Shown: positions 45,332-54,693 of the stretch, in pieces
Layout of the letters: every line of letters starts with the position of its first letter
Position numbering within the stretch: the first letter of the stretch is position 1
Assembly: GCF_009914755.1 (NCBI RefSeq)
Contig: NC_060928.1
Source of the DNA: the human T2T-CHM13v2.0 reference genome, Homo sapiens
Reading direction: 5' to 3' (one strand)
DNA: 64,000 nt
The notes under the pieces: model-generated
The model's database searches: none
The model's input: only the letters and a program-made list of their open reading frames with translations
What the model was told of the DNA's origin: nothing
Program-made: the position numbers and the translations under genes

Positions 45332-46390
45332 CCTCTGCTTTATATTCCCAAGCAATTCATATCGACTCAAACTCGTGTTCTTAATTCAAAAGAAAATCTC
45401 TGCAAATAAGCAGACCCTCCTTGTTAGAAGATGGTTTATTTAATGGTACTGGAGAAAGCCCTGATGACTAGCAAATGATTCCTCCCATTCACACACATTC
45501 CTCTCCTGGTAAGAAGTCCTATTAATGACTGTTTTCCCCATCTTATGTTTCCAGTGATTTTTAACATCCACTGTAGACTGATGTCCCACACCTTAACCTA
45601 GTGGAGGGAGGCTCCAGTACACGAGGGATTGTAACTGGCACTGCTAGGGTCACCTGCAGCCTGCAGATAGGTCTTGCTTGCCTTGCAATGTTCATAAAAT
45701 TTTTAAAATGGTATTTTGACATTTGAAATTTGGAGGATTTTATATTAAGGTCTAGATTTTGCTTTAAAAGTCTCCTGAAAAATCTTCTAATACTGGCTTA
45801 TAAGTGAGTAGCTGCTTCCTACTTTAACATGGGCAAAATCTGTCCAGTTCTCATCTAGGTTTGCAACCCGGCATTGTTCTGTCCCATCTTTGCTTCAACA
45901 AAAATGTAGCTCATTTACTATTTATAATAATCAGGCAGAAAAAATATTGTGCCTTCTGCTTTCAATACTATCTCTGCAATAAGGAGAAATTAACATTTAT
46001 CCTTATCTTACATATGGAAAACTTAGTAATTGTAGAGTTTTTTTGTCGGATTCTTCTGGGTATTTTCTTTCTTATAATAAAAATTAGAAGCACTGGTAAG
46101 GAACAATCAGAACTGATATTCTTTTTCTATCTTTGTTAGGAGACTTACATGGCCAATTGGATGACTTAATATTTATATTTTATAAGGTATGAATGTTCAA
46201 ATTAAGTTGCTTTCTTGCTCTGAGGCTTAATTTAGAAGCTCAAATTCAGTATCAATTGAACAAATGCTTAAATATTACTTGAATTTTTAAAATGTTATTA
46301 TTTACTTTTATTTTTTTTTTTGAGATAGGGGTCTCACTCTCACTTAGGCTGGAGTGCAGTGGTGCGATCTCGGCTTGCTCAACCTCTGCC
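45332..46390 (+). repeat. Inverted duplicate of PPEF2 intron 6/exon 7/intron 7 segment (donor ~53130-54483)
   Basis: Reverse-complement match along its length, roughly 90-95% by eye; lacks the AluY present in the donor. Confidence 0.95.
46140..46186 (+). pseudogene. Antisense pseudo-exon copy of PPEF2 exon 7 (GDLHGQLDDLIFIFYK)
   Basis: 46/47 nt identical (ATC>ATA, synonymous); ttgttag acceptor and gtatga donor intact. Confidence 0.95.
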
Positions 46391-47152
46391 TCCCAGATTC
46401 AAGCAATTCTCCTGCCTCAGCCTCCCAAGTAGCTGGGAGTATAGGCGCGCGTCACCACGTCCAGCTAATTTTTGTACTTTTAGTAGAGACGGGGGTTTCA
46501 CCATGTTGGCCAGGATTGTCTCCATCTCTTGACCTCGTGATCCGCCCGCCTCGGCCTCCCAAAATGCTGGGATTACAGGCGTGAGCCACTGTGCCTGGCC
46601 CAGGTAATTTTATTTTGAGGATGTTGTTATCTGCTCCAAGCAGCATCCCTAACTTGAGGAGATTAATAGTGTTAATATGTATTGAGCCTTTTCCAAATAG
46701 GCGCTGTTCTGGGCATTTTCTATAAATTAGTTGATTAACCACCATACCACTCCTATAAGATAGCATCTTTTATAGTACAGATAAGAAAACTGAGGCACAA
46801 AATACTAAGACTCTTCCAGGACTGAATCCAGATAGTCTGACTCTGGAGCCCATACCTCTCTGTACTTCTCTCTCAAGTAGTCCTTGGACTGTATCATTTG
46901 CTGCATCACCCTCTCTCCAGAGCTTTGCAAACCAAACATTGGGAAGTTAGTTTTTTGCTAAGCCACAGAAAATAAACTTTTCGTTAGCATTCTTTCCCAG
47001 AGTTCCTTCTTCTATGTTTACATAATTAAATATGATTCTTCCCATGAGATAATTTGCTCTACTGTGGTTTGCTGTCTCTGCCTCCAGACATACATGCTGC
47101 TGGACAGAATGTTTGAGTTGAAAGTTTGTGAGAAAATCAAGATACAACTGAT

Positions 47153-48068
47153 GGCTAGGTGTGGTCACTTATGCCTACAATCCCAACACTTTGGGAGGCC
47201 AAAGTGGGAGAATTACTTGAGCCCAGGAATTCAAGACCAGCCTGGGCAACATAGTGAGACCCCATCCCTATAAATACTTTTTTTTTTTTTTTTTGGAGAC
47301 AGAGTCTCACTCTGTCGCCAGGCTGGAGTGCAGTGGCACAATCTTGGCTCACTGCAGTCTCTGTCTCCTGGGTTCAAGTGATTCTCCTACCTCAGCCTCC
47401 TGAGTAGCTGGGACTACAGGCGCATGCTGCCATGCCCGGCTAATTTTTTTGTATTTTTAGTAGAGACAGGGTTTCACCATGTTGGCCAGGATGGTCTTGA
47501 TCTCCTGACCTCGTGATCCACCCATCTCAGCCTCCCAAAGTGCTGGGATTACAGGCATGAGCCACCGCATCCAGCATAATTTTTTTTTTTTTTTTTGACA
47601 TGGAGTCTCGCTGTGTGGCTCAGGCTGGAGTGCAGTGGCACGATCTCAGCTCACCAAAACCTCTGCCTCCCGGGTTCAAGCGATTCTCCTGCCTCAGCCT
47701 CCTGAGTAGCTGGGATTACAGGTGTGCACCACCACACCTGGCTAATTTTTGTATTTTTAGTAGAGAAGGGGTTTCACCATGTTGGTCAGGCTGGTCTCAA
47801 ACTCCTTACCTCATGATCCGCTGGCCTCCGACTCTCAGAGTGCTGGGATTACAGGTGTGAGCCATCACACCCGGCCCTCTACAAATAATTTTTTAAAAAT
47901 TAGCCAAGCATGATTGTGTGTGACTGTAGTCCCAGCTACTCGGGAGGCTGAGGCTGGAGGATTGCTTCAGCCCAGGAGGTCAAGGCTGCAGTGAGCCGTG
48001 ATCGTGGTACCACACTCCAGTCTGGATGACAGAGTGAGACCTTGTCTCAAAAACAAACAAACAAAAAA
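47153..48068 (+). mobile_element. AluJ split at its linker by two minus-strand AluS elements
   Basis: Left arm 47153-47278, right arm ~47877-48068. Confidence 0.8.
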
Positions 48069-49406
48069 AGATATAACAGATGTGTAAGTGAAAACACTGA
48101 GTTTGGGTGTACAGGGACACAGCAATTTCTAGTTACCAAACCACAAGGAGTCATATCCTTACTTGCTAAATGGTAGCTAAGTCTAGAAACCACACATTAG
48201 GGGTGGCAGAGTAACAAGAAACCTGGGTCTCTGGACAACTTCATAGAACCAAACTGCCATTTCAGCCAACAATTGCCTATTCCAGGGTTCAAACCCAGGT
48301 CTGTCTCACTCTAAAGCCGTATTCTTTCATTTCATGTATGTCTCATATACATAGACTTTCATATCCATATCCATTAGAATTGCCCAAAGCTGAAGTAGAC
48401 TGATTGTTCCCTGTCTTTGGAACTTCCCAGGAAAATGTTGTCATGGATGTTGTAGCAGCATTTCCTGTGTGGGATGAGTCAAGTTTAAGAGTTAGGTGTA
48501 AGAAAATAGAACCTTTGCTTCCTAGCTTTCCATTTCCAAAATGAAATGGAAAATAGAAATCTATTGTTATTGGTAAATCATACATTCTGTCTCATACTCT
48601 TCCACCTCCAACCCCAACACATTCTGGTTATTTTGTGTTCCTTTAGGGCAAGCACCATCTCTGTTTCATCTTTTTATCTCTGTAACACTTTCTTTGCACA
48701 TAGTAAGCACCCAAAGCACATTTGTTGAGTTTAACTGAAATTGATCTTCATCTTTTTTTTCTGCCAACTAGCACGCTCTCTGAATGTAGTAGTAGGCACT
48801 AAATACATATTTCTTGACTTTAATTGAAGGTAATATGAATTATTTGGGAAACGTAGGCTCTTTAGGTGGCAATAATTGAGAGGTAGTATTTAGAATTATC
48901 TAGATCCAATGGCAGATAACACGGCACTGGTTGCTACTCCCCACTGGCATGTACATGGTAGACATGACTAAGTGACTACAGCACACTTGCCCCCTAGCCC
49001 AACTGCAGATTCTCAATCTTTTTTTTTTTTTTTTAGAAACAGGTTCTCACTGTGTCCCTGCAAGATGGAGTGCAATGGCAATCAGAGCTCACTGCAGCCT
49101 CCCAAGTAGATAAGACTACAGGCCCATGCCACCACTCCCAGCTAAGTTTTTAATTTTTTTATAGAGACAAAGTTTTGCTATGTTGCCCAGACTGGTCTCA
49201 AACTCCTGGTCTCAAGCAATCTTCCTGTCTTCTAAAGTGCTGAGTTTATAGGTGTGAGACACTGTGCCCAGCCTCCATACTCTTAATGGCCTCCACACTC
49301 TTAACAGCCATAATCAGTTGACTGCAGTCAGCATGTAAGATGACATTTATATTGGCAATGAAACTGGGCATTATGGTGAAATTTGTATTATTTCGTTAAC
49401 CACTAC

Positions 49407-49556
49407 CTTGCTCCTCTCTATTTTGTCCAAAAGCTCCAGATCAGTTATGTCTGACACCCCACCATGAAGAATTAGAACTTTCTCATCTATCAGAGTGGCC
49501 AGTGGAAGCCAACAGAAAACATCTTGCAGGGTTCTTAGTATTTCCTTCCCGTGTAC
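49407..49556 (-). CDS. PPEF2: PPEF2 exon 10 (VHGKEIL...WLPLA...LHGGVS...ERSK)
   Basis: HGG motif; 150 nt, phase 0-0; preceding intron is 90 nt. Confidence 0.96.
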
Positions 49557-53225: not shown

Positions 53226-53333
53226 TATTTTAAAACTTCAAGTAATATTTAAGCATTTGTTCAATTGATACTGAATTTGAGCTTCTAAATTAAGCTTCAG
53301 AGCAAGAAAGCAACTTAATTTGAACATTCATAC

Positions 53334-53380
53334 CTTATAAAATATAAAGATTAAGTCATCCAATTGGCCATGTAAGTCTC
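53334..53380 (-). CDS. PPEF2: PPEF2 exon 7 (GDLHGQLDDLIFIFYK), PPP-family GDxHG metal-binding motif
   Basis: ttgttag acceptor, GTATGA donor, 47 nt. Confidence 0.96.
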
Positions 53381-53822
53381 CTAACAAAGATAGAAAAAGA
53401 ATATCAATTCTGATTGTTCCTTACCAGTGCTTCTGATTTTTATTATAAGAAAGAAAATACCCAGAAGAATCTGACAGAAAAAACCCTACAAAGTTTTCCA
53501 TATGTAAGATAAGGATAAATATTAATTTCTCCTTATTGCAGAGATAGTATTGAAAGCAGAAGGCATAATATTTTTTCTGCCGGATTATTATAAATAGTAA
53601 ATGAGCTACATTTTTATTGAAGCAAAGATGCGATAGAACAGTGCAAGGTTGCAAACCTAGATGAGAACTGGAGAGATTTTGCCCACGTTAAACTAGAAAG
53701 CAGCTACTCACTTATAAGCCAGTGTTAAAAGATTTTTCAGGAGACTTTTAAAGCAAAATCTAGATCATAATATAAAATCCTCCAAATTTCCAATGTTGAA
53801 ATACCATTTTTAAAAGTTTATG

Positions 53823-54120
53823 GGCCGGGCGGGTGGCTCACGCCTGTAATCCCAGCACTTTGGGAGGCTGAGACGGGCGGATCACGAGGTCAGGAGATAA
53901 AGACCATCCCGCCTAACACGGTGAAACCCCATCTCTACTAAAAATACAAAAAATTAGCCGGGCGTGGTGGCGGGCGCCTGTAGTCCCAGCTACTCGGGAG
54001 GCTGAGGCAGGAGAATCGTGTGAACCCGGGAGGCGGAGCTTGCAGTGAGCCGAGATTGCACCACTGCCCTCCAGCCTGGGCGACAGAGCGGGACTGTGTC
54101 TCAAAAAAAAAAAAAAAAAA
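53823..54120 (+). mobile_element. AluY inside the donor arm of the duplication
   Basis: Y diagnostics (ctaacacgg, gtgaacccgggaggcggagcttg); TSD aaaa(g/c)tttatg. Confidence 0.9.
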
Positions 54121-54693
54121 CTTTATGAACATTGCAAGGCAGGCAAGACCATCTGCAGGCTGCAGGTGACCCTAGCAGGGCCAGTTACAATCCCTCCTGC
54201 ACTGGAGCCTCCACTAGGTTAAGGTGTGGGATGTCTGTCTACAGTGGATGTTAAAAATCACTGGAAACATAAGATGGGGAAAACAGTCATTAACAGGACT
54301 TCTTTCCAGGAGAGGAATGTGTGTGGATGGGAGGAATAATTTGCTAGTCATCGGGGCTTTCTCAAGTACCATTAAATAAACCATCTTCTAACAAGGAGGG
54401 TCTGGTTATTTGCAGAGATTTTGTTTTGAATGAAGAACATGAGTTTGAGTCAGTAGGAATTGCTTGGGAAAATAAAGCAGAGGCTGGGCCCTGAGGTCCA
54501 TGATCCCCTTCGCTGCACCACCACCTCTTTTTTAGGTAAATGTGGAGTGAATATGCAAATTGTGGACCTGAAGGGGTTAAATTTGGCTTATCATCACATC
54601 TCCCTGCAGCCCGCCACTCCTCTTGCATCCCCACACAGGTAGAGCGTTCTTCTTTGTGTGCAGCATGGAAAGCCGTTTCTGACCAGCTCTTAC

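What the first reader, a model, noticed from the sequence alone, without database searches (positions are those of the whole stretch)
45332..54483. Intragenic ~1 kb inverted copy of catalytic exon 7 creates a long pre-mRNA stem around exons 8-10
Seen: 45332-46390 is the reverse complement of ~53130-54483 (minus an AluY), including exon 7 and both its splice sites, with ~6.7 kb between arms. The loop holds exons 8-10 (167+37+150=354 nt, phase 0 to 0), which encode GDFVDRG, RGNHE and HGG. Inferred: a non-Alu dsRNA could (a) promote in-frame skipping of exons 8-10, giving a catalytically dead protein with myristoyl, IQ and EF-hand modules, (b) promote an exon 8-10 circRNA, (c) mask exon 7 and cause frameshift/NMD, or (d) direct ADAR recoding of GDLHG. 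Exon 8 also has a weak AAG acceptor. This would be a primate-specific, built-in antisense regulator.
Basis: partly seen in the sequence, partly recalled or inferred. Interest (0 to 1): 0.85.

Follow-up and report, generated by a model that had tools for sequence, protein, structure and literature searches.

The report
Inverted exon-7 copy inside PPEF2 intron
A 1-kb stretch of the human PPEF2 gene that includes its small catalytic exon 7 was copied backwards into an Alu element three introns downstream; the copy is real and could form a long RNA duplex, but nothing seen here shows that it regulates the gene.

Summary
Window 45332-46389 (+) is the reverse complement of 54483-53132. It is 94.75% identical over 953 aligned unique bases. 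The source arm is interrupted by a later Alu at 53823-54116. These are the only two copies the whole-assembly search found. The copy carries an intact pseudo-exon 7 at 46140-46186, with 1 synonymous difference and both splice sites.

New here is the origin. The copy sits inside a single older Alu whose target-site duplications survive at 45245-57 and 46601-14. One junction is a 7-nt microhomology. The other lies in Alu-Alu homology with the source's neighbouring Alu. That is the signature of templated break repair, and it makes the copy primate-specific.

The predicted RNA duplex is very stable (-904 and -624 kcal/mol). The regulatory readings remain untested and are partly disfavoured:
- Exon 7's 5' splice site lies inside the stem, which argues against 7-to-11 joining.
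- Eleven Alu pairs already bracket exons 8-10.
- The catalytic Asp and His adenosines have 5' G and 5' C neighbours.
- Mismatches show no bias towards keeping the pairing.
- No paper reporting a PPEF2 circRNA, exon 8-10 skipping or this duplication turned up.

Most likely this is a neutral repair scar and an intronic ADAR substrate.

The parts
45245..45257 (.). Left target-site duplication of the recipient Alu. The 5' splice site of lncRNA LOC105377285 (45247|45248) falls inside it.
   Evidence: The same 13-14-nt word, with one extra A, recurs at 46601-46614.
45258..45338 (+). Head of the recipient Alu (T-rich tail first on the + strand). Its last 7 nt, 45332-45338, are the junction microhomology shared with source 54483-54477.
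   Evidence: Three-way alignment.
45339..46309 (+). Unique part of the inverted copy. It reads antisense in PPEF2 pre-mRNA and sense on the + strand. It corresponds to distal intron 6, exon 7 and the first ~120 nt of intron 7.
   Evidence: 94.75% identity over 953 aligned bases. Alignment.
46140..46186 (+). Pseudo-exon 7. It is 47 nt with AG and GT flanks intact and has one difference from the real exon (46171 A versus 53349 C, both Ile codons).
46310..46389 (+). Alu head copied from the source's neighbouring Alu. It ends in the same 7-nt word (46383-46389).
   Evidence: At 17 sites where the left head and the source head differ, this head matches the source at 12, the left head at 2 and neither at 3.
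46390..46600 (+). Remainder of the recipient Alu, followed by the right target-site duplication at 46601-46614.
   Evidence: It keeps 10 CpG in 213 nt.
49407..51241 (-). Exons 10 (49407-49556), 9 (49647-49683) and 8 (51075-51241) in the loop between the arms. Together 354 nt, phase 0 to 0.
   Evidence: using the supplied annotation.
53132..53215 (-). Head of the truncated Alu next to the source arm. It is the priming-homology end of the duplicated segment.
   Evidence: Weak Metazoa_SRP hit at 53057-53203.
53216..53822 (-). Source arm, proximal part: start of intron 7, exon 7 (53334-53380) and proximal intron 6.
53823..54116 (-). Alu inserted into the source arm after the duplication, with target-site duplications at 53812-53822 and 54117-54127. 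It is CpG-rich (19 CpG in 277 nt). The label AluY comes from recalled diagnostic positions.
   Evidence: The copy has the empty site at about 45694-45712. CpG count.
54117..54483 (-). Source arm, distal intron 6 part. It ends at the 7-nt microhomology 54483-54477.

Best explanation
This is a fixed, primate-specific scar of templated DNA repair, not a demonstrated regulator.

Origin. A break occurred inside an Alu in PPEF2 intron 10. One end invaded the oppositely oriented Alu that lies ~7 kb away, just downstream of exon 7. DNA synthesis then copied that Alu's head, the start of intron 7, exon 7 and ~0.9 kb of intron 6. The new strand was captured at the other broken end through a 7-nt microhomology. 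The result is a ~1.05-kb inverted insertion with no loss of recipient Alu sequence. A younger Alu later landed in the source arm.

Consequence, all inferred. PPEF2 pre-mRNAs that still carry introns 6 and 7 when polymerase reaches the copy can fold into a ~1-kb imperfect duplex. The copy lies 6.7-9.2 kb past the source arm. Such a duplex would be a nuclear ADAR substrate, edited mostly at intronic sites. In transcripts whose exon 7 is already spliced, only a 47-bp exon-intron duplex can form, and only until intron 10 is removed. Any effect on PPEF2 output is probably small. If there is one, exon 7 occlusion leading to frameshift and NMD is the likeliest.
For: Shown by the sequence:
- The arms and their identity.
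- Only two copies found in the genome.
- The recipient Alu is split at one point, and its two target-site duplications survive at 45245-57 and 46601-14.
- The same 7-nt word sits at both ends of the inserted segment and at the break point.
- The Alu head next to the copy is source-derived at 12 of 17 informative sites, against 2 recipient-like and 3 neither.
- The copy has the empty site of the later Alu, and that Alu is flanked by an 11-nt target-site duplication in the source.
- CpG retention is 19 in 277 nt for the later Alu and 10 in 213 nt for the recipient Alu.

Neutral-looking evolution:
- 11 of 29 transitions preserve G.U in the PPEF2 RNA and 18 do not, p = 0.26.
- 21 of 50 mismatches are transversions, and there are 19 gap columns.

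Duplex potential:
- -904 and -624 kcal/mol for the two blocks. An ordinary Alu pair gives -440 kcal/mol.

Context from papers, passages only:
- A human retina editome preprint names PPEF2 among heavily edited photoreceptor genes (10.1101/2023.06.22.543349).
- A genome-wide dsRNA scan found 58 long, highly paired dsRNAs overlapping coding exons. [quoted passage not shown]
Against: - Divergence is uneven. It is 40 of 593 (6.7%) in the distal part and 10 of 360 (2.8%) around the pseudo-exon, Fisher p = 0.007. That could mean constraint on the copy or gene conversion. It can also be explained by constraint on the real exon's flanks alone, which would halve the divergence, and by base composition: the proximal part is 27% GC with 0-1 CpG, the distal part 39-43% GC.
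- The pseudo-exon keeps its splice sites and its peptide. With 47 nt at ~5% divergence only ~2 changes are expected, so this carries little weight.
- The repair pathway is inferred from junction anatomy. A replication template switch (MMBIR/FoSTeS) would leave the same junctions.
- No RNA data were available, so neither duplex formation nor editing at these arms is shown.
Confidence: 0.7

Rival explanations
1. The inverted copy is a built-in antisense regulator of PPEF2. By pairing with exon 7 and its flanks it causes exon 8-10 skipping, an exon 8-10 circRNA, exon 7 masking with NMD, or ADAR recoding of the catalytic motif.
For: - The geometry is real. Both arms lie in one transcription unit, exons 8-10 are in the loop, and their removal keeps the frame.
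- The predicted duplex is very stable.
- Exons looped out by stable long-range pairings show lower inclusion genome-wide (PMC8052449, passages).
- Exon-intron duplexes direct ADAR editing, and slower splicing raises it (PMC6724681, passages).
- PPEF2 is reported as heavily edited in human retina.
- Divergence is lower around the pseudo-exon, p = 0.007.
Against: - Exon 7's donor lies inside the stem, so exon 7-11 joining is disfavoured.
- 11 Alu pairs already bracket exons 8-10, and 12 pairs within intron 10 plus 9 intron 8/intron 10 pairs compete.
- The antisense arm is transcribed 6.7-9.2 kb after the source arm, so introns 6 and 7 will often be gone by then. This rests on recalled elongation and splicing rates and was not tested.
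- The catalytic D179 and H181 adenosines have 5' G and 5' C neighbours.
- There is no excess of pairing-preserving substitutions.
- The RefSeq models supplied show no exon 8-10 skipping isoform.
- Searches turned up no paper on a PPEF2 circRNA or on such skipping.
Confidence: 0.12
2. The repeat matters on the other strand. In the + strand lncRNA LOC105377285 the two arms sit 84 nt after the 5' splice site and 239 nt before the 3' splice site of its single 9.5-kb intron. The stem would bring the splice sites together and help, or even define, that splice. The sense-oriented pseudo-exon could also be used as a cassette exon.
For: - GT at 45248 and AG at 54722 are canonical on the + strand.
- The arms start at 45332 and end at 54483.
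- The pseudo-exon has intact AG and GT on the + strand.
- 18 of 29 transitions keep G.U in the + strand RNA.
Against: - The lncRNA is a predicted model of unknown abundance.
- The 18 versus 11 split is not significant (p = 0.26).
- The 5' splice site lies in the Alu target-site duplication and may simply be a chance GT.
- No expression data could be reached.
Confidence: 0.1
3. The arms are kept alike by ongoing gene conversion, or matter mainly at the DNA level as substrates for inversion of exons 8-10.
For: - There is a low-divergence tract of 360 nt next to the Alu junction.
- The arms are inverted repeats 6.7 kb apart.
Against: - The longest perfect match between the arms is only 59 nt.
- The Alu head beside the low-divergence tract is visibly more diverged than that tract in the alignments (rough estimate by eye ~10%, not computed), which does not fit a recent conversion tract entering from that side.
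- The low-divergence tract is AT-rich and CpG-free.
Confidence: 0.05

Closest known systems
Long intramolecular exon-intron dsRNAs catalogued genome-wide (dsRNAscan preprint, PMC11838218; passages read)
   Same: A long, well-paired inverted repeat sits within one transcription unit. One arm overlaps a coding exon, the other is intronic, and the duplex is removed by splicing and so confined to the nucleus.
   Different: - I could not check whether this PPEF2 pair is among their 58 cases. PPEF2 does not occur in the main text, and I did not look at the supplements.
- Overall pairing here is ~95%, with blocks at 93-97%. Their 'long, highly paired' class needs >300 bp and >96%.
- The arm here is a non-repeat gene segment copied by repair, not a pair of transposons.
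Intronic editing-complementary sequences that direct ADAR recoding (GRIA2 type; background passages in PMC6724681)
   Same: An exon can base-pair with an intronic complement, here 46 of 47 positions. Editing would have to precede removal of the intron that holds the complement.
   Different: - The complement is three introns downstream and 7.1 kb away, not in the adjacent intron.
- It is a young, near-perfect duplicate, not a conserved imperfect hairpin.
- No editing in exon 7 is documented.
- The catalytic-residue adenosines are in poor neighbour contexts.
Circularisation or skipping of exons driven by flanking inverted repeats: mouse Sry and inverted Alu pairs (recalled), intronic Alus and alternative splicing (PMC2533698, listing only), exon loop-out (PMC8052449, passages)
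   Same: Inverted complementary sequences bracket exons 8-10. The loop is 6.7 kb.
   Different: - Most of the upstream arm lies upstream of and across exon 7, not in intron 7, so the stem buries exon 7 and its splice sites.
- Eleven ordinary Alu pairs give the classical configuration without the copy.
- No PPEF2 circRNA is reported in the papers searched.
Templated insertions and homology- or microhomology-mediated break repair or template switching at Alu elements (SDSA/MMEJ, MMBIR/FoSTeS; recalled, with search listing only, e.g. PMC7407515, PMC4352052)
   Same: A nearby sequence is copied into a break. One junction lies in Alu-Alu homology, the other in a 7-nt microhomology. The orientation is dictated by oppositely oriented Alus.
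   Different: - This is an old, fixed germline event inside a gene that happened to carry a whole coding exon.
- The exact pathway cannot be told from the junctions alone.

Membership tests
Intragenic inverted repeat / long intramolecular dsRNA | Two reverse-complementary arms on the same primary transcript | tested here: met
   The arms are 45332-46389 and 53132-54483. Both lie inside PPEF2 (25974-68943, - strand, supplied annotation).
Intragenic inverted repeat / long intramolecular dsRNA | Thermodynamically stable predicted duplex | tested here: met
   duplexfold gives -904.3 kcal/mol (587 pairs) and -623.7 kcal/mol (348 pairs). An Alu pair gives -440.4.
Intragenic inverted repeat / long intramolecular dsRNA | Formation in vivo, shown by clustered A-to-I editing or structure probing | not testable with these tools
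   The only evidence is a gene-level statement that PPEF2 is heavily edited in retina. Site lists are in closed supplements.
ECS-directed ADAR recoding site | Exon paired with an intronic complementary sequence | tested here: met
   46 of 47 positions pair, -67.8 kcal/mol.
ECS-directed ADAR recoding site | Complement lies in the intron adjacent to the edited exon | tested here: not met
   The complement lies in intron 10. Exon 7 is flanked by introns 6 and 7, and the distance is 7.1 kb.
ECS-directed ADAR recoding site | Observed A-to-G change in cDNA at the exon | not testable with these tools
   No RNA data. The PPEF2 + 'RNA editing' search gave 3 papers, none describing an exon 7 site.
Complementary-sequence-mediated exon circularisation | Inverted complementary sequences in the two introns flanking the circularised exons | tested here: inconclusive
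   Only 53132-53333 (~200 nt, of which ~84 nt are Alu head) of the upstream arm lies in intron 7. The rest covers exon 7 and intron 6. Eleven Alu pairs meet the criterion on their own.
Complementary-sequence-mediated exon circularisation | Back-splice junction detected | not testable with these tools
   The PPEF2 + circRNA search found 5 papers. By title and abstract start none concerns a PPEF2 circRNA.
Templated insertion by break repair or template switching | Inserted segment is a copy of sequence found elsewhere, and the recipient site is otherwise intact | tested here: met
   The recipient Alu is split at one point, both target-site duplications are present, and no recipient sequence is lost.
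Templated insertion by break repair or template switching | Homology or microhomology at both junctions | tested here: met
   The 7-nt word sits at 45332-38, 54483-77, 46383-89 and 53138-32. The Alu head beside the copy matches the source at 12 of 17 informative sites.

The most novel reading that the evidence does not exclude
The antisense pseudo-exon acts as a distal, catarrhine-specific pairing partner for catalytic exon 7. It lies three introns downstream and is usable only while intron 10 persists. In photoreceptors it would either recode residues just after the GDLHG motif or occlude exon 7 and send a fraction of transcripts to NMD. The adenosines with favourable 5' U or A neighbours would give I188V, I190V/M, Y192C and K193E/R. 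On the opposite strand the same repeat would define the intron of the antisense lncRNA.
Probability: 0.08. Interest if true: 0.6.

Novelty: new member of a known kind. Interest (0 to 1): 0.3.

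Why it matters
- It is a clean, fully resolvable example of how break repair between oppositely oriented Alus can place an antisense copy of a coding exon inside the same gene. That creates a non-transposon kilobase-scale dsRNA in a photoreceptor-restricted transcript.
- If the duplex forms, it is a natural test of how far downstream an exon-complementary sequence can still act on editing or splicing. 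It could also contribute to the heavy editing reported for PPEF2 in retina.
- In practice, the two arms can mislead read mapping and variant calling at the catalytic exon. They are also a possible, if weak, substrate for inversion of exons 8-10.
- As it stands there is no evidence of function, so the value is mainly as a candidate locus and a mechanistic illustration.

Tried and rejected
- Chance or assembly artefact: rejected. The arms share ~1 kb at ~95% identity, only two copies were found in the genome, and the ~5% divergence shows an old event.
- A transposon family: rejected. No other copies were found genome-wide, and the segment contains a coding exon.
- Reverse direction, with the intron 10 copy as the original: rejected. 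That copy lies inside an Alu with intact target-site duplications.
- Whole right-hand Alu copied from the source: rejected. The source Alu is truncated, and the right-hand Alu's far end carries the recipient's target-site duplication. The head only is source-like.
- Selection for pairing, tested by wobble bias: no signal, 11 versus 18, p = 0.26.
- The first duplex calculation for 'exon 7 only' used wrong copy coordinates. It was corrected.
- Literature:
  - PPEF2 + circRNA: 5 papers.
  - PPEF2 + 'RNA editing': 3 papers.
  - PPEF2 + inverted: 18 papers hold both terms, 15 listed.
  - PPEF-2 + splic*: 3 papers.
  - By titles and abstract starts, none describes this duplication, a PPEF2 circRNA or exon 8-10 skipping.
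  - A search for a published version of the retinal editome preprint with open supplements found none.
  - The long-dsRNA selection paper I was looking for did not appear in the listing.
- Dating against other primates and subfamily typing of the Alus against consensus sequences: not possible with the collections at hand. Ages and Alu labels are therefore recalled or inferred.

Full report
**1. Is it there?**

Yes. In 44000-56000 the three longest of 83 inverted pairs (25 shown) are 45693-46028 x 53487-53822 (336 nt, 93%), 46038-46317 x 53203-53482 (280 nt, 97%) and 45332-45607 x 54208-54483 (276 nt, 94%). blastn joins them into two blocks, 45693-46438 x 53822-53083 and 45332-45704 x 54483-54116.

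A global alignment of the unique parts gives 903 identities in 953 aligned positions (94.75%). There are 50 mismatches (29 transitions, 21 transversions; 10 of the 50 in a CpG context), 19 gap columns and K2P 0.0545.

A search of the whole 3.1-Gb assembly with the copy returned only itself and the two blocks of the source arm (3 matches; the tool notes that counts are lower bounds). This is therefore a two-copy, gene-internal duplication, not a repeat family and not chance.

**2. Anatomy relative to PPEF2 (- strand)**

Joining the annotated coding exons gives an open 753-codon frame.
- Exon 7 (53334-53380, 47 nt, entered in phase 1) encodes GDLHGQLDDLIFIFYK.
- Exons 8, 9 and 10 are 167, 37 and 150 nt (354 nt in all, phase 0 in and out).
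- GDFVDRG and RGNHE lie in exon 8, HGG in exon 10.
So does exon 17.
- Removing exons 8-10 leaves the frame open. Removing exon 7 or exons 7-10 (401 nt) shifts it, with stops near codon 191-192.

In transcription order the source arm comes first: distal intron 6, exon 7, then the first ~120 nt of intron 7 plus an Alu head. The ~6.7-kb loop with exons 8-10 follows. Then comes the copy, which starts 3.0 kb into intron 10 and ends 2.2 kb before exon 11.

The copy's pseudo-exon is 46140-46186. It is sense on the + strand, has both splice-site dinucleotides and has one difference from the real exon (46171 A versus 53349 C, ATA versus ATC, both Ile).

**3. How it arose**

The copy sits inside one Alu.
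- On the + strand an Alu begins with its T-rich tail at 45258 and runs to 45338.
- The unique copy follows (45339-46309), then a second Alu head (46310-46389), then the rest of an Alu to 46600.
- The same 13-14-nt word flanks the whole structure at 45245-45257 and 46601-46614. This is the target-site duplication of a single original Alu insertion.

The second head comes from the source. In a three-way alignment there are 17 sites where the left head differs from the head of the truncated Alu next to the source arm (53215-53132). At those sites the second head matches the source at 12, the left head at 2 and neither at 3. The duplicated segment therefore ran from 54483 to about 53132 and included the source's Alu head.

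Both junctions carry homology. The segment begins and ends with the same 7-nt word (54483-54477 and 53138-53132). The recipient Alu was opened exactly after its own copy of that word (45332-45338; the second copy is at 46383-46389). One junction thus lies in Alu-Alu homology between two oppositely oriented Alus, and the other in a 7-nt microhomology. No recipient sequence was lost.

That is the footprint of templated repair of a break in the recipient Alu: invasion of the inverted Alu ~7 kb away, ~1 kb of synthesis, then microhomology capture. A replication template switch would leave the same junctions, so the pathway itself is inferred.

Relative timing.
- The Alu at 53823-54116 in the source has an 11-nt target-site duplication (54127-54117 and 53822-53812), and the copy shows the empty site. 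It therefore inserted after the duplication.
- That Alu keeps 19 CpG in 277 nt, against 10 in 213 nt for the recipient Alu. This fits the order recipient Alu, then duplication, then younger Alu.
- The labels AluJ-like (source neighbour), S/Y-like (recipient) and AluY (later insert) rest on diagnostic positions I recall, not on a library search.

Age. Because the copy lies in an Alu, it is necessarily primate-specific. The 5.4% divergence between arms is comparable to human-Old World monkey or human-gibbon genomic divergence as I recall those figures. That suggests an event roughly 20-35 million years old. It could not be tested here because no primate genomes are held.

**4. Signs of selection?**

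Divergence is uneven. It is 40 of 593 (6.7%) in the distal six alignment windows and 10 of 360 (2.8%) in the four windows around the pseudo-exon, Fisher p = 0.007.

This can be explained without selection on the copy. Constraint on the real exon and its flanks alone would halve the divergence. The proximal part is also 27% GC with 0-1 CpG, against 39-43% GC distally.

If pairing in the PPEF2 RNA were maintained, transitions should favour G.U over A.C. Instead 11 of 29 give G.U in the PPEF2 RNA and 18 give A.C (p = 0.26). The longest perfect match between the arms is 59 nt. I see no positive evidence for constraint, but without an outgroup the test is weak.

**5. What would the RNA do?**

Predicted duplex energies are -904.3 kcal/mol (53822-53203 x 46317-45705; 587 pairs) and -623.7 kcal/mol (54483-54118 x 45704-45332; 348 pairs). 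An ordinary Alu pair that also brackets exons 8-10 (52185-52464 x 47622-47901) gives -440.4 kcal/mol. Exon 7 alone pairs with its antisense copy at 46 of 47 positions, -67.8 kcal/mol (one search used wrong coordinates for this item). The potential for a long dsRNA is therefore real.

- **(a) Exon 7-11 joining.** This needs a free exon 7 donor, but the donor is buried 131 nt inside the unique duplex. Loop-out would sooner give exon 6-11 joining, which shifts the frame.
- **(b) Exon 8-10 circle.** Of 40 inverted pairs in 43101-54693, 11 join intron 7 to intron 10, 9 join intron 8 to intron 10 and 12 lie within intron 10. The classical Alu configuration for such a circle exists without the copy, and many competitors exist. 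Only ~200 nt of the source arm lie in intron 7.
- **(c) Masking of exon 7.** This is the geometrically natural effect, but the copy is transcribed 6.7-9.2 kb after the source arm. By recalled elongation and splicing rates, introns 6 and 7 will often already be removed. What then remains is a 47-bp exon-intron duplex that can exist until intron 10 is spliced.
- **(d) ADAR recoding.** In exon 7 the adenosines of D179 and H181 have 5' G and 5' C neighbours. Adenosines with 5' U or A would give L180L, Q183Q, L187L, I188V, I190V/M, Y192C and K193E/R. That 5' G and C are poor contexts is recalled knowledge.

Background passages support the general mechanisms.
- Exons looped out by stable long-range pairings are less included, and such pairings are depleted (PMC8052449).
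- Exonic sites with intronic complements must be edited before splicing, and their editing rises when splicing is slow (PMC6724681).
- A human retina editome preprint lists PPEF2 among heavily edited photoreceptor genes (10.1101/2023.06.22.543349).

**6. Comparison with what is known**

[quoted passage not shown] The PPEF2 structure belongs to this kind. PPEF2 is not named in that main text, and I did not look at its supplements.

The structure works like an ECS or an inverted-repeat loop-out in principle. It fails the 'adjacent intron' feature of classical ECS sites and only partly meets the 'both arms in flanking introns' feature of circularisation.

No paper found by four PPEF2 searches describes this duplication, a PPEF2 circRNA or exon 8-10 skipping. 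I judged this from listings only, apart from the preprint passages.
- PPEF2 + circRNA: 5 papers.
- PPEF2 + 'RNA editing': 3 papers.
- PPEF2 + inverted: 18 papers hold both terms, 15 listed.
- PPEF-2 + splic*: 3 papers.

**7. Verdict**

Function is not shown. The most likely status is a neutral repair scar that makes an intronic, nuclear dsRNA and thus a probable ADAR substrate (confidence 0.7). The regulator reading keeps about 0.12. A role on the + strand for the antisense lncRNA, whose 9.5-kb intron is bracketed by the arms at 84 and 239 nt from its splice sites, keeps about 0.1. Novelty: new member of a known kind. Interest: 0.3.

Noticed in passing
window 45247-45248 and 54722-54723 (+ strand), lncRNA LOC105377285: The single intron of this predicted antisense lncRNA has canonical GT and AG. 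It is bracketed almost exactly by the two arms: the copy starts 84 nt after the 5' splice site and the source arm ends 239 nt before the 3' splice site. On the + strand RNA the stem would bring the splice sites together. The 5' splice site lies in the recipient Alu's target-site duplication. Exon 2 overlaps PPEF2 exon 6 in antisense.
   Followed up: partly
window 52460-53025 (+): There is a fragment of large-subunit rRNA here (Rfam RF02543, 112 bits, model positions 2390-3399 of 3401), lying in PPEF2 intron 7 directly beside the truncated source Alu. It overlaps the RefSeq 'silencer' 52457-52752, so that element may owe its signal to rRNA-like sequence.
   Followed up: partly
window 38450-38451 (exon 13 donor) and 27028-27030 (exon 17 acceptor), - strand: PPEF2 exon 13 is followed by a GC rather than a GT donor. 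Exon 17, like exon 8, has an AAG acceptor.
   Followed up: no
window 54455-54476 versus the recipient Alu just past the break (46390-46410): Beyond the 7-nt microhomology, the start of the source segment also resembles the next ~20 nt of the Alu, sharing a 12-nt run after a short gap. This extended near-homology may have helped capture of the second end. Not quantified against chance.
   Followed up: no
window 53122-53181 (-): There is a sub-threshold match to the Alu-derived mir-3135 family (46.2 bits against a gathering score of 80) in the source Alu head. It is probably just Alu similarity.
   Followed up: no
window 43101-54693: Inverted Alu pairs are dense here. Of the 40 inverted pairs found, 11 join intron 7 to intron 10, 9 join intron 8 to intron 10 and 12 lie within intron 10. 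This may by itself account for the heavy editing of PPEF2 reported in retina.
   Followed up: partly
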